In this document: positions 21,864-22,197 of the stretch, piece by piece | Layout: the number at the start of each line of letters is the position of its first letter | Numbering within the stretch: the first letter of the stretch is position 1 | DNA from: Blastocatellia bacterium | Lineage (GTDB): Bacteria; Acidobacteriota; Blastocatellia; UBA7656 | Direction of reading: 5' to 3' | Assembly: GCA_963832205.1 (NCBI GenBank) | Contig: CAWHTK010000003.1 | Coordinates: forward strand, 54,764-118,763 | Length of the DNA: 64,000 nt | Notes under the pieces: generated by a model | Seen by the model: only the letters and a program-made list of their open reading frames with translations | Database searches by the model: none | Told to the model about the DNA's origin: nothing | Translations under genes and position numbers: made by a program

Positions 21864-21892
21864 TTGACTCCGGGGTTCATCCGGCATAGAAT
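21864..21892 (+). promoter_or_regulatory. sigma70-type promoter for the tandem 17-aa peptide genes
   Basis: TTGACT-N17-TAGAAT, 68 bp upstream of the first ATG. Confidence 0.65.
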
Positions 21893-21960
21893 CCGCCGTG
21901 AAATAGAGCGCAGGCAGTTAATCCCCGCTCTGGTACACCGTTGGTCAAGGAGAGAGGCTT

Positions 21961-22014
21961 ATGAAGATAAAAACCAGTGTCAAAGCAGGTGGTGATATAA
22001 GTACGCCTGGCTAA
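21961..22014 (+). CDS. 17-aa peptide MKIKTSVKAGGDISTPG (not in ORF track)
   Basis: RBS aaggag/gagg, ATG to TAA. 13/17 aa identical to the downstream paralogue. Confidence 0.8.
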   Translation: MKIKTSVKAGGDISTPG

Positions 22015-22050
22015 TCTTGTAGTGCGGTCTCTAGGAAAGGAGAAAACGCT

Positions 22051-22104
22051 ATGAAGATCAGAACGCATATAAAGGCAGGGGGCGACATCGGTACTCCAGG
22101 TTAA
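22051..22104 (+). CDS. 17-aa peptide MKIRTHIKAGGDIGTPG (not in ORF track)
   Basis: RBS aaaggag, ATG to TAA. 10 of the 13 conserved residues use a different synonymous codon from the paralogue. Confidence 0.8.
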   Translation: MKIRTHIKAGGDIGTPG

Positions 22105-22197
22105 TCCTCTGTCGCCTGCTGGATTATAGTTTCCGTGTTGCGGCTCCGGGCCTCGCGCTCCCATCTCAAGGCCCGGATACCTTCTACCCCTTCAAAC

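What the first reader, a model, noticed from the sequence alone, without database searches (positions are those of the whole stretch)
21864..22177. Unannotated operon of two tandem 17-aa peptides under purifying selection
Seen: promoter TTGACT-N17-TAGAAT, then RBS-MKIKTSVKAGGDISTPG* and, 90 bp later, RBS-MKIRTHIKAGGDIGTPG*, then a 9-bp inverted repeat (22145-22177). Start, stop and length are conserved and 13/17 residues are identical. Ten of those 13 codons differ synonymously, and the spacers have diverged apart from the RBS and a few bases after the stop. That is the signature of real peptide genes. Inference: a basic leader ending in AGG (double-glycine-like site) releases DISTPG/DIGTPG or Gly-extended forms, giving a minimal signalling or RiPP peptide family with processing genes elsewhere. 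I do not recognise it as a described system.
Basis: partly seen in the sequence, partly recalled or inferred. Interest (0 to 1): 0.88.

Follow-up and report, generated by a model that had tools for sequence, protein, structure and literature searches.

The report
Tiny double-glycine peptide gene family
Two unannotated 17-codon genes are real members of a large, apparently undescribed family of very short peptides that many soil and water bacteria probably cut and export with a dedicated transporter, perhaps as cell-to-cell signals.

Summary
Two 17-codon ORFs (21961-22014, 22051-22104, + strand) each follow an AAGGAG ribosome-binding site. They share 13 of 17 residues, and 10 of those 13 codons differ synonymously (simulation P = 4.5e-5). 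They are not a local oddity. The genome holds at least five such loci, and the leader M-K-[IV]-K-[ST]-x-[IV]-K-A-G(-G) with a short, very variable tail recurs in Acidobacteriota, Planctomycetota, Verrucomicrobiota, Proteobacteria, Chloroflexota and others. No Pfam, NCBIfam or Rfam model and no paper I could search describes it. Elsewhere the genes sit beside a conserved cassette: TPR protein, HlyD adaptor, C39-peptidase ABC exporter, second ABC subunit. In Acidobacteriota they also sit head-to-head with ECF43-type sigma factor / Ser-Thr kinase pairs. In a 300-genome phylum sample, all 5 genomes with the peptide motif were among the 7 with this exporter (Fisher P = 1.1e-9). No modifying enzyme recurs. 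Best reading: minimal double-glycine-type precursors, cleaved and exported, probably signals. The exporter was not found in this 72%-complete assembly, and cleavage, export and expression are all unproven.

The parts
21864..21892 (+). Sigma-70-like promoter match, TTGACT-N17-TAGAAT, about 70 nt upstream of ORF1.
   Evidence: 10 of 12 consensus positions. One site was found against 0.7 expected in shuffles, so it is weak evidence alone. The position fits a two-gene transcript.
21898..21938 (+). Imperfect inverted repeat in the presumed 5' untranslated region (13-nt arms, 77% complementary, 15 nt apart).
   Evidence: pair I2. Its function was not tested.
21947..21952 (+). Ribosome-binding site AAGGAG of ORF1, 8 nt before the ATG.
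   Evidence: The same AGGAG-type site precedes family members in other genomes.
21961..22014 (+). ORF1, 17 codons plus stop: MKIKTSVKAGGDISTPG. Leader codons 21961-21993, variable core DISTPG 21994-22011.
   Evidence: The leader matches the family motif, which was found 2 times in the window against 0 in 100 shuffles.
22037..22042 (+). Ribosome-binding site AAGGAG of ORF2, 8 nt before the ATG.
22051..22104 (+). ORF2, 17 codons plus stop: MKIRTHIKAGGDIGTPG. Leader codons 22051-22083, core DIGTPG 22084-22101.
   Evidence: It shares 13 of 17 residues with ORF1, 10 of them through synonymous codons.
22145..22177 (.). Perfect 9-nt inverted repeat (TCCGGGCCT / AGGCCCGGA, 15-nt loop). It lies between ORF2 and the stop of the convergent gene 22198-24387 (-), so it may be a two-way transcript end.
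   Evidence: pair I4. There is no T-tract and the terminator scan does not call it. The role is inferred.

Best explanation
The two ORFs are separately translated genes for 17-residue precursor peptides. They belong to a large unannotated family.

Residues 1-10/11 (M-K-[IV]-[KR]-[TS]-x-[IV]-K-A-G-G) form an unusually short, basic, double-glycine-type leader. The last 6-7 residues (DISTPG / DIGTPG, or one Gly longer if the cut falls after A-G) are the product.

In other genomes the family is encoded beside a dedicated and highly conserved export cassette: cytoplasmic TPR protein, HlyD-type adaptor, ABC exporter with an N-terminal C39 cysteine peptidase, and a second ABC subunit. The inferred mechanism is that the C39 domain recognises the leader and cuts at the Gly motif, and the transporter expels the small peptide.

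In Acidobacteriota the peptide genes also sit head-to-head with ECF43-type sigma factor genes and their membrane Ser/Thr kinases, which carry an outward-facing beta-propeller or TPR domain. The most likely role is therefore a secreted signal that feeds back through kinase and sigma factor.

In this genome the pair is an orphan among housekeeping genes and would depend on machinery encoded elsewhere.

Shown: the genes, the amino-acid-level constraint, the family, the gene neighbourhoods, and the co-occurrence with the exporter. Inferred: translation in vivo, cleavage and its site, export, and the signalling role.

My odds: real coding genes of this family about 0.9; cleaved and exported by the C39 transporter about 0.65; signal sensed by the kinase/sigma pairs about 0.3.
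For: Coding and constraint
- 13 of 17 residues are identical, 10 through synonymous codons, P = 4.5e-5.
- Across 185 distinct leader DNA sequences, third codon positions vary (entropy 0.94-1.95 bits). First and second positions mostly do not (0-0.99). Residues 2-10 were set by my search pattern, so this count is partly circular.
- AGGAG-type sites precede members in all genomes looked at.

Family
- At least 8 ORFs at 5 loci in this genome.
- 8 of 61 relatives, G000 included, hit with several copies each, and 0 hits for the reversed-pattern control.
- 75 stretches in named genome records of many phyla. 73 of them gave a fitting ORF.
- 178 distinct peptides, with modal length 16-19 aa.
- The longer repeat-type relatives number 575 cluster representatives at E <= 0.001.
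- The same core type as here occurs elsewhere: MKVRSNVRAGGDVLTPG (L134), MKVKTHVKAGGDILTPG... (L075) and MKVKTKIKAGGVMQTPG (L062). In L062 the ABC gene lies directly beside the peptide genes.

Exporter
- Gene order peptide(s)-TPR-HlyD-C39 ABC-ABC in L034, L049 and L074, and peptide-HlyD-C39 ABC-ABC in L043.
- Of the 75 stretches of 8 kb or less, the ABC gene is present in 20 and HlyD in 14.
- Nine such C39 domains from different phyla are 66-71% identical. Q20, C26, H106 and D122 (numbered on the first sequence) are among the invariant columns. That these are the catalytic residues is recalled C39 knowledge, not tested here.
- In 300 sampled genomes of the phylum, this C39 type occurs in 7 and the peptide motif in 5. 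All 5 are among the 7 (Fisher P = 1.1e-9). In three genomes the peptide motif lies 2.5-5.4 kb from the C39 match.

Sensing
- An ECF sigma gene lies within about 300 bp of a peptide gene in 5 of 20 relatives' loci (L033, L034, L037, L038, L039), although each genome has only 11-13 such sigma genes.
- These sigma factors score above the TIGR02999 cut-off. They carry HTLQ[TA][TS]AL, which matches the QTTA phospho-threonine motif given for ECF43 (PMC13147305, passages read).
- Two of the four kinases examined (both in L037) have one membrane segment after the kinase domain; L038's only hydrophobic stretch is N-terminal and G000's C18 kinase has none. The extracytoplasmic placement of the C-terminal PD40 or TPR domains is inferred from that.
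Against: - This assembly has no C39 peptidase and no HlyD or ABC membrane part of the cassette type. It is only 72% complete, so this is not proof of absence. The same-genus genome G001 has the cassette.
- None of the five loci in this genome lies beside a transporter or an ECF sigma gene.
- The pair is not conserved at this position in G001 or G030.
- The leader departs from the classical double-glycine leader. It is basic instead of acidic, is 10-11 rather than about 15-24 residues long, and has hydrophobic residues at -5/-9 if the cut follows G-G.
- Position 11 is Gly in only 124 of 178 members, and that sample was biased towards G-G by my pattern. The cut may therefore follow A-G.
- There is no evidence of transcription, translation, cleavage or export.
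- Two of the 7 exporter-positive genomes gave no peptide hit.
- Ser/Thr kinases are abundant in these genomes (52 tblastn matches in G000), so loose kinase proximity means little. Only the tight sigma-factor adjacency is informative.
Confidence: 0.6

Rival explanations
1. RiPP precursors. The short cores are post-translationally modified by enzymes encoded elsewhere before or after leader removal.
For: - The leader/core architecture with dispersed, very variable precursors resembles NHLP/Nif11-type RiPP precursors (PMC2887384, passages read).
- The cassette's TPR protein scores best against TPR proteins of RiPP systems: NF040586 FxSxx-COOH system, E = 1e-45, and HaaT, E = 2e-16. Both are far below their cut-offs.
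- Core subtypes keep motifs that could be modification sites: xPGxDPxG, xxWGx, D-I-x-T-P-G.
Against: - After clustering the neighbours, no modifying enzyme family recurs in the 25 contexts or the 75 stretches. Only ABC, HlyD, TPR/kinase and ECF sigma recur.
- A Rieske protein and an L-PSP protein recur only in three Pseudomonadales records.
- Cores are rich in Gly (25%) and poor in Cys (1%).
- Neighbours in the window are a deaminase-like protein, a membrane glycosyltransferase-like protein, a methyltransferase and a GT2. They are not shared with other loci.
Confidence: 0.15
2. Small exported antimicrobial peptides (microcin- or class II bacteriocin-like), with tandem arrays as a weapon repertoire.
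For: - C39 ABC exporters with HlyD adaptors are the classical route for unmodified bacteriocins and microcins (established knowledge; PMC2887384 passages).
- Tandem arrays of 4-10 diverging copies occur (L044, L045, L079).
- The cores are very variable.
Against: - Predicted products are only 5-10 residues, Gly/Pro-rich and not amphipathic. That is far shorter than the known unmodified bacteriocins I recall.
- No recurrent small membrane immunity-type gene appeared in the clustering (ORFs under 100 aa were not clustered, so this point is weak).
- The tight link to sigma factor/kinase pairs fits sensing better.
Confidence: 0.12
3. Non-exported small proteins that act inside the cell. They could be ligands or clients of the cytoplasmic TPR protein, regulatory upstream ORFs, or mimics of the ribosomal protein L36 N-terminus.
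For: - In this genome the genes stand alone with no transporter.
- The TPR protein of the cassette has no membrane segment.
- The leader resembles the first 9 residues of L36 (NF002021, E = 0.18, 11.8 bits against a cut-off of 70).
Against: - The L36 match is far below its cut-off.
- The pair is followed by a convergent gene, not by a gene it could attenuate.
- Co-occurrence and adjacency with the C39 exporter across phyla are hard to explain for purely intracellular peptides.
Confidence: 0.08
4. Not genes at all: chance ORFs or a structured non-coding RNA repeat.
For: The ORFs are very short. There is no expression evidence. A 95-codon antisense ORF overlaps them (21877-22164).
Against: - The synonymous-change pattern has P = 4.5e-5.
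- Third-position variation is seen family-wide.
- A conserved RBS and start precede hundreds of homologues.
- No Rfam match at E <= 1.
- The antisense ORF has no Pfam match.
Confidence: 0.02

Closest known systems
Double-glycine leader peptides exported by peptidase-containing ABC transporters (ComC/ComAB and BlpC/BlpAB pheromones, class II bacteriocins, class II microcins)
   Same: - N-terminal leader ending in a Gly motif, followed by a variable product.
- A dedicated ABC exporter with an N-terminal C39 domain that scores above the Pfam cut-off (71 and 62.6 bits against 22).
- Q, C, H and D are among the invariant columns of the C39 alignment.
- A HlyD-type adaptor, as in Gram-negative systems.
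- Signal-transduction genes next to the peptide genes, as for ComC/ComDE (the ComC comparison is recalled).
   Different: - The leader is 10-11 residues and basic (three Lys), not about 15-24 residues and acidic with Leu/Ile at -4/-7/-12.
- Products of 5-10 residues are shorter than ComC-type pheromones.
- The putative sensor is a Hanks-type kinase with an ECF sigma factor, not a histidine kinase with a response regulator.
- A TPR protein and a second, peptidase-less ABC subunit belong to the cassette.
NHLP / Nif11-type precursor families with their three-gene export cassette (TIGR03794 HlyD-like, TIGR03796 ABC with peptidase, TIGR03797 ABC without peptidase; Haft et al. 2010, PMC2887384, passages read)
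   Same: - The same three-part exporter architecture. These three models are the best or near-best NCBIfam matches of the cassette proteins.
- Many very variable precursors per genome, often far from the export genes.
- Family-wide similarity ends at the Gly motif.
   Different: - Scores are far below the models' cut-offs: 173.6 against 853, 115.3 against 709 and 68.7 against 156 bits.
- The leaders there are 70-83 residues, against 10-11 here.
- Those families are tied to heterocyclisation or lanthionine enzymes, and none recurs here.
ECF43 sigma factors activated by Hanks-type Ser/Thr kinases (EcfK/PknS of Xanthomonas citri, EcfP/PknT of Vibrio parahaemolyticus; PMC13147305, passages read)
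   Same: - The sigma factors beside the peptide genes carry the QTTA-type motif.
- They are followed by a membrane Ser/Thr kinase gene. Two of four kinases examined have one membrane segment after the kinase domain.
   Different: - In the passages I read, no peptide ligand or adjacent small peptide gene is mentioned for ECF43 systems.
- Here 5 of 20 relatives' loci have a family peptide gene within about 300 bp of the sigma gene.
- The link to the window's own pair is only by family membership.
RRNPP-type peptide / TPR-receptor quorum sensing of Firmicutes (recalled, not checked in a call)
   Same: A short secreted-peptide gene lies directly next to a gene for a cytoplasmic TPR protein (L034, L049, L074).
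   Different: - The TPR protein has no DNA-binding or phosphatase domain detectable by Pfam.
- Export is by a C39 ABC transporter.
- The hosts are Gram-negative phyla.
- No import system is linked.

Membership tests
Double-glycine leader peptide / C39-ABC (PCAT) substrate | N-terminal leader ending in G-G, G-A or G-S directly before the product. | tested here: met
   Both window peptides have K-A-G-G at residues 8-11. Across 178 family peptides A9 is found in 175, G10 in 178 and G11 in 124. The sample was pattern-biased.
Double-glycine leader peptide / C39-ABC (PCAT) substrate | Classical leader consensus: acidic residues, with Leu/Ile/Val at -4, -7 and -12 (logo described in PMC2887384). | tested here: not met
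   The leader is basic (K2, K4, K8). It has I/V at residues 3 and 7, which is -9 and -5 from a G-G cut or -8 and -4 from an A-G cut.
Double-glycine leader peptide / C39-ABC (PCAT) substrate | A cognate C39-peptidase ABC exporter in the same genome or locus. | tested here: inconclusive
   Met for the family: adjacency in L034, L043, L049, L074 and L062, and co-occurrence 5 of 5 within 7 of 300 genomes. Not met for this genome: PF03412 gives 0 matches in the 72%-complete assembly.
Double-glycine leader peptide / C39-ABC (PCAT) substrate | Leader shown to be removed at the Gly motif during export. | not testable with these tools
   This needs a cleavage assay or peptidomics.
NHLP/Nif11 bacteriocin export system (TIGR03794/03796/03797) | Scores above the curated cut-offs of the three models. 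| tested here: not met
   173.6 against 853.3, 115.3 against 709.4 and 68.7 against 156.2 bits. The architecture is the same, but these proteins are not members.
RiPP precursor | A modifying enzyme genetically linked to the precursor family. | tested here: not met
   The neighbour clustering of 25 contexts and 75 stretches plus the Pfam scans found no recurrent modifying enzyme. Unlinked enzymes cannot be excluded.
ECF43 sigma factor / Hanks kinase signalling pair (as partner system) | ECF sigma with the QTTA-type threonine motif, encoded with a Hanks-type kinase. | tested here: met
   Met for the sigma genes next to family peptides in relatives. TIGR02999 scores 203.7 bits against a cut-off of 126. 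All 7 sigma factors examined carry HTLQ[TA][TS]AL. A kinase gene is adjacent. No such pair lies at the window's locus.
Ribosomal protein L36 | Match to the L36 models above their cut-off. | tested here: not met
   Only residues 1-9 of one paralogue match NF002021, at E = 0.18 and 11.8 bits against a cut-off of 70.
Any Pfam, NCBIfam or Rfam family | A model match for the peptides or the DNA. | tested here: not met
   Four longer paralogues gave no significant match. The 17-aa peptides are below the tools' 20-residue minimum. Rfam gave 0 matches at E <= 1 over 21000-23000.

The most novel reading that the evidence does not exclude
A widespread and so far undescribed peptide-signalling system of Gram-negative phyla. 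Ultra-short precursors (10-11-residue basic leader, 5-10-residue product) are cut and exported by a dedicated C39 ABC/HlyD/TPR machine. The released oligopeptides are the long-sought extracytoplasmic ligands of Hanks-type receptor kinases that switch on ECF43 sigma factors, which would be a quorum-sensing-like loop. The window's DISTPG/DIGTPG pair would be two such pheromone genes served in trans.
Probability: 0.25. Interest if true: 0.9.

Novelty: new variant of a known kind. Interest (0 to 1): 0.78.

Why it matters
Genes of 16-19 codons are invisible to gene callers. This family has at least 178 distinct members in the few hundred kilobases I looked at, plus 575 cluster representatives of its longer repeat form, and it has no model in Pfam or NCBIfam.

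If the reading is right, it defines a new and very small class of double-glycine leader with a matching, highly conserved C39 exporter found in Acidobacteriota, Planctomycetota, Verrucomicrobiota, Proteobacteria, Chloroflexota and others.

It also gives a concrete, testable candidate for what activates ECF43-type sigma factor/kinase pairs. The passages I read describe those pairs by their kinase link and name no ligand.

One carrier is a cultured strain with a complete genome (Methylomicrobium lacus, record NZ_CP169217.1, locus L074), so the hypothesis can be tested at the bench.

Tried and rejected
- Rfam over 21000-23000 at E <= 1: no match.
- Pfam and NCBIfam on four longer paralogues: only noise (Toast_rack_N at E = 0.061; L36 at E = 0.18), rejected.
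- Synteny: the pair is absent from the corresponding sites of G001 and G030. I could not use orthologues for selection tests.
- Exporter in this genome: tblastn with the C39, membrane and HlyD parts of the cassette found nothing at E <= 1. PF03412 found nothing. Only ABC ATPase-domain matches appeared.
- Small family ORFs beside the six ECF sigma loci of this genome: none.
- The look-up of sequencing runs for window 21338-22400: none was listed and no RNA holder was listed.
- Complex prediction of the C39 domain alignment with a 34-residue family precursor from L034: no verdict (score 0.01 against a mark of 0.32). This is not evidence either way.
- First metagenome pattern, for K-A-G-G-D-x-x-[ST]-P-G-stop: 0 stretches. 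The broader second pattern gave 2.
- The membrane glycosyltransferase-like gene next to the pair, compared with a similar-looking gene near the DILTPG peptide in L075: not related (E = 0.18). The shared neighbourhood was dropped.
- The antisense 95-codon ORF 21877-22164: no Pfam match.
- Atlas search with the 83-aa paralogue: only unnamed 'hypothetical protein' clusters, commonest in Acidobacteriota.
- The search for homologous proteins: 24 hits, all unnamed or 'hypothetical protein', with no Pfam.
- Literature. Full-text searches for NHNQT, VKAGG, double-glycine/Acidobacteria/C39/precursor peptide, peptidase-containing ABC transporter/small ORFs/tandem, and PCAT/double-glycine/Planctomycetes/Acidobacteria/Verrucomicrobia/signaling peptide gave nothing on this family. 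I saw listings only. The library lacks most subscription journals.
- Supplements were closed. The supplementary tables of PMC13147305 and of the ECF reclassification paper PMC7826278 (seen in a listing only) could list the genomic context of ECF43 genes, and I could not check them.
- A shared promoter-like motif upstream of Blastocatellia-type members was seen by eye. It was not tested statistically.
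Full report
**1. What is in the window**

Reading 21500-22600 confirms the finding. ORF1 (21961-22014) encodes MKIKTSVKAGGDISTPG. ORF2 (22051-22104) encodes MKIRTHIKAGGDIGTPG. Each starts 8 nt after an AAGGAG.

The repeat finder reports one 70-nt direct repeat (21947-22016 / 22037-22106, 70% identity, spacing 90). It begins at the ribosome-binding site and ends 2 nt after the stop. It also reports the perfect 9-nt inverted repeat at 22145-22153 / 22169-22177.

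The consensus scan finds TTGACT-N17-TAGAAT at 21864-21892. With 1 site found against 0.7 expected in shuffles, the promoter match carries little weight by itself.

The two genes differ at 16 of 54 nt yet share 13 of 17 residues, and 10 of the 13 use different codons. In 200,000 simulations with 16 random substitutions, the fraction that kept at least 13 identical residues and an open frame was 4.5e-5.

The ORFs are in one frame, separated by a single TAA. The second has its own ribosome-binding site. A 95-codon antisense ORF (21877-22164) has no Pfam match. Rfam finds nothing.

The flanking genes are a cytidine/dCMP deaminase-like gene (21338-21838, +) and a convergent membrane protein of the PTPS_related/PMT_2 type (22198-24387, -). 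A methyltransferase, a GT2 and an acyltransferase follow. None of these recurs at other loci of the family.

**2. The pair belongs to a family**

A degenerate pattern for the first eleven codons hits only these two sites in the window, against 0 in 100 shuffles. In the whole 4.28-Mb assembly (27 contigs, 72% complete) it and a protein-level scan find more members:
- C2:17735 MQVRSNVKAGGVVITG.
- C18, two tandem 21-codon genes: MKVRT.[IL]KAGAG...
- C25, two pieces.
- C17, an 83-residue protein with three repeats of L-K-[IV]-K-S-x-I-K-A-G, a short variable stretch, then N-H-N-Q-T-I-x-R-G.

All have AGGAG-type sites. All five loci lie among housekeeping genes (BipA, CysS, an AIR-synthase-like gene and so on).

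In 61 related genomes, G000 included, 8 have hits, several copies each, and the reversed-pattern control gives 0. Their translations show the same leader with short, very different tails:
- Arrays of eight and four 19-codon genes, MKVKSNLKAGxGPGxDPxG (L044, L045).
- Pairs such as ...EWLMTPAGS / ...GGGEGGFPGF.
- Multi-repeat forms.

**3. Range**

An exact-match scan of one genome per species returned 75 stretches. 73 of them gave an ORF that fits. By their titles the records are:
- Acidobacteriota: Blastocatellia, Pyrinomonadaceae, Thermoanaerobaculia, Bryobacterales, Solibacteraceae, Holophagales.
- Pirellulaceae and other Planctomycetota.
- Verrucomicrobiota.
- Gamma- and Betaproteobacteria, including the complete genome of Methylomicrobium lacus.
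- Chloroflexota, Gemmatimonadaceae, Myxococcales/Polyangiaceae and Acidimicrobiia.

Pooling everything gave 178 distinct peptides with modal length 16-19 residues.

Recurrent tail types are xxWGx, three aliphatic residues followed by [ST]-D, I-T-L-T-G-A-D, xPGxDPxG, and forms with a conserved follower. The follower is N-H-N-Q-T in most phyla and N-R-C-[ED]-T-[VF]-R-R in Proteobacteria.

The window's tail type is found elsewhere:
- MKVKTKIKAGGVMQTPG and ...VAESPG (L062).
- MKVKTHVKAGGDILTPG... (L075).
- In metagenome arrays, MKVRSNVRAGGDVLTPG and MKVKTSVKAGGDGHSPG.

Across 185 distinct leader DNA sequences, third codon positions are variable and first and second positions mostly are not. That is expected for a protein-level constraint. 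My pattern fixed the allowed residues at positions 2-10, so the argument is partly circular.

The repeat-type relatives are numerous. There are 24 hits in the 90%-clustered database, all unnamed or 'hypothetical protein' with no Pfam. There are 575 representatives at E <= 0.001 in the 50%-clustered library. The Atlas holds unnamed clusters, commonest in Acidobacteriota.

**4. What sits next to the family**

I clustered all ORFs of at least 80 aa in 20 relatives' contexts plus 5 of this genome's own. I did the same for ORFs of at least 100 aa in the 75 named stretches. I then scanned representatives against Pfam and NCBIfam.

Two things recur.

(a) An export cassette, in the order peptide gene(s), TPR protein of about 400 aa, HlyD-type adaptor, ABC protein of about 890-960 aa with an N-terminal Peptidase_C39 domain, and a second ABC protein.
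- The full order is seen in L034, L049 and L074. L043 has HlyD, the C39 ABC protein and the second ABC gene beside its peptide gene, with no TPR gene mapped.
- In L062 an ABC gene lies directly beside peptides of the window's tail type.
- Of the 75 stretches of 8 kb or less, 20 hold the ABC gene and 14 the HlyD gene.
- The TPR protein has no membrane segment.
- Nine of these C39 domains, from Blastocatellia-type genomes to Methylomicrobium, are 66-71% identical. Q20, C26, H106 and D122 (numbered on the first sequence) are among the invariant columns. That they form the C39 catalytic set is recalled, not tested.
- That degree of conservation across phyla parallels the conservation of the leader.
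- The best NCBIfam matches are the three models of the NHLP/Nif11 export system, but far below their cut-offs.

(b) In Acidobacteriota, ECF sigma factor genes of the TIGR02999 / PF07638 type, each followed by a Ser/Thr kinase gene.
- A family peptide gene lies head-to-head within about 300 bp of the sigma gene in 5 of 20 relatives' loci: L033, L034, L037, L038 and L039.
- Two more loci have the sigma gene within about 3.5 kb.
- These genomes carry only 11-13 such sigma genes each, so chance adjacency is very unlikely.
- All 7 sigma factors examined carry HTLQ[TA][TS]AL. This is the QTTA motif whose threonine is the phospho-acceptor in ECF43 sigma factors, a group defined by co-occurrence with Hanks-type kinases (PMC13147305, passages read).
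- Of four kinases examined, the two of L037 have one membrane segment after the kinase domain. L038's only hydrophobic stretch is N-terminal and may reflect an over-extended ORF call, and G000's C18 kinase has none. The PD40 beta-propeller or TPR repeats that follow would then face outwards.
- Other signalling genes appear next to arrays in other phyla: a different ECF sigma in a Pirellulaceae record, a kinase in L089, and a winged-helix/TPR regulator in L079.
- No modifying enzyme recurs.

**5. Co-occurrence test**

In a 300-genome sample of the phylum, a profile of the cassette's C39 domain (E <= 1e-30) hit 7 genomes. The peptide pattern hit 5, all among those 7. The Fisher one-sided P is 1.1e-9.

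Relatedness inflates such tests. Here the five lie in four different families.

In G344, G268 and G102 the peptide hit lies 2.5-5.4 kb from the C39 hit. Two exporter-positive genomes (G085, G295) had no peptide hit with this strict pattern.

The generic PF03412 search is less telling. It hits 34 of 61 relatives, including all 7 relatives other than G000 that have peptide hits.

**6. The weak point for this window**

The assembly itself has no C39 domain. It also has no HlyD or ABC membrane part of the cassette type.

It is 72% complete, and the same-genus genome G001 (98% complete) has the cassette next to a family peptide. A trans-acting exporter in the unassembled part is therefore plausible but unshown.

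The pair is not present at the matching positions in G001 or G030. These small genes evidently turn over quickly.

No sequencing run could be listed, so I have no expression data.

**7. Mechanism**

The best-supported model is a minimal double-glycine-type system. The 10-11-residue leader is recognised by the dedicated C39 domain. The peptide is cut at the Gly motif and exported through the ABC/HlyD machine.

The cut site is open. G-G at residues 10-11 fits the classical rule. However, residue 11 is Gly in only 124 of 178 members, while K-A-G is nearly invariant. A cut after A-G would place the two aliphatic residues at -4 and -8, closer to the classical spacing. The products here would be DISTPG/DIGTPG, or GDISTPG/GDIGTPG.

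The head-to-head sigma factor/kinase pairs suggest that the released peptide is sensed outside the membrane and feeds back on transcription. This step is pure inference.

The cytoplasmic TPR protein may present precursors to the exporter, or may bind peptide inside the cell. I could not test either.

A structure-based test of leader docking gave no verdict.

**8. Comparison with known systems and novelty**

The kind is known: a Gly-motif leader with a C39 ABC exporter. The three-part exporter architecture matches the one Haft and colleagues described for NHLP/Nif11 precursors, which are likewise dispersed and very variable (PMC2887384, passages read).

The differences are:
- the extremely short, basic leader;
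- the 5-10-residue products;
- the added TPR component;
- the link to ECF43-type kinase/sigma pairs;
- failure to reach any curated model cut-off.

Five full-text searches found no description. This is limited to the open-access library, and supplements could not be read.

I rate the finding as a new variant of a known kind. The bolder reading is that these peptides are the ligands of ECF43 kinases. The evidence does not exclude it, and I give it about 0.25.

Noticed in passing
G000 contig C25:236332-236612 (locus L133, about 6333-6613): A multi-repeat family precursor that looks frameshifted. The first unit ends early (MRIKSNIKAGGKRSAQ...*), while NHNQT and L-[KR]-[IV]-K-S-x-V-K-A-G units continue in another frame. 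This is either a decaying gene or an assembly error.
   Followed up: partly
G000 contig C17:170404-170655 (locus L003:1281-1532, - strand): An 83-residue three-repeat precursor. Its third repeat runs into a stop, and an N-H-N-Q-T-I-R-R-G follower is readable just downstream in a different frame. This is a second possible frameshift in the family.
   Followed up: partly
Upstream regions of family genes in L032, L035, L036, L038, L039, L042, L046-L048 and G000 C17: A shared promoter-like motif about 40-95 nt before the start codon: (A)TGA..(T)TTT(C), about 10 nt, then TTxCGC[CA]TT followed by a TAnnAT-like hexamer. The window's own promoter region resembles only its downstream half (CGGCATAGAAT). 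The statistical scan was not completed.
   Followed up: partly
window 21961-22104: ORF1 and ORF2 are in the same reading frame with only one TAA between them. Read-through would give a two-unit precursor that resembles the natural multi-repeat forms in layout.
   Followed up: no
window 22076-22121: An imperfect inverted repeat (12-nt arms, 83%) pairs the 3' half of ORF2 with the sequence just after its stop (pair I3). It is a possible transcript-end or translational structure.
   Followed up: no
Family leader, residues 1-9: The leader M-K-V-[KR]-[ST]-x-[VIL]-K resembles the first nine residues of ribosomal protein L36 (NF002021, E = 0.18, far below its cut-off). It is probably convergence on a well-translated basic N-terminus.
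   Followed up: partly
L034:2839-4971 (-) and equivalents: The second ABC subunit of the cassette has a long N-terminal extension of about 200 residues before its membrane domain. It has no Pfam C39 match and may be a degenerate peptidase-like domain.
   Followed up: no
L064, L120, L073, L067 (Pseudomonadales records): The 16-residue MKVKTKVKAGGF[ST]WS[NRQ] subtype is flanked in three records (L064, L120, L073) by a Rieske [2Fe-2S] protein, and in three (L064, L120, L067) by an L-PSP (RidA-like) protein, next to HlyD and the ABC exporter. This is the only hint of a lineage-specific tailoring enzyme.
   Followed up: partly
window 19985-21184 (-): A 399-residue pentapeptide-repeat protein lies two genes upstream of the pair. 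A pentapeptide-repeat protein also lies near the family genes in the Oscillochloris record L097. This is probably coincidence.
   Followed up: no
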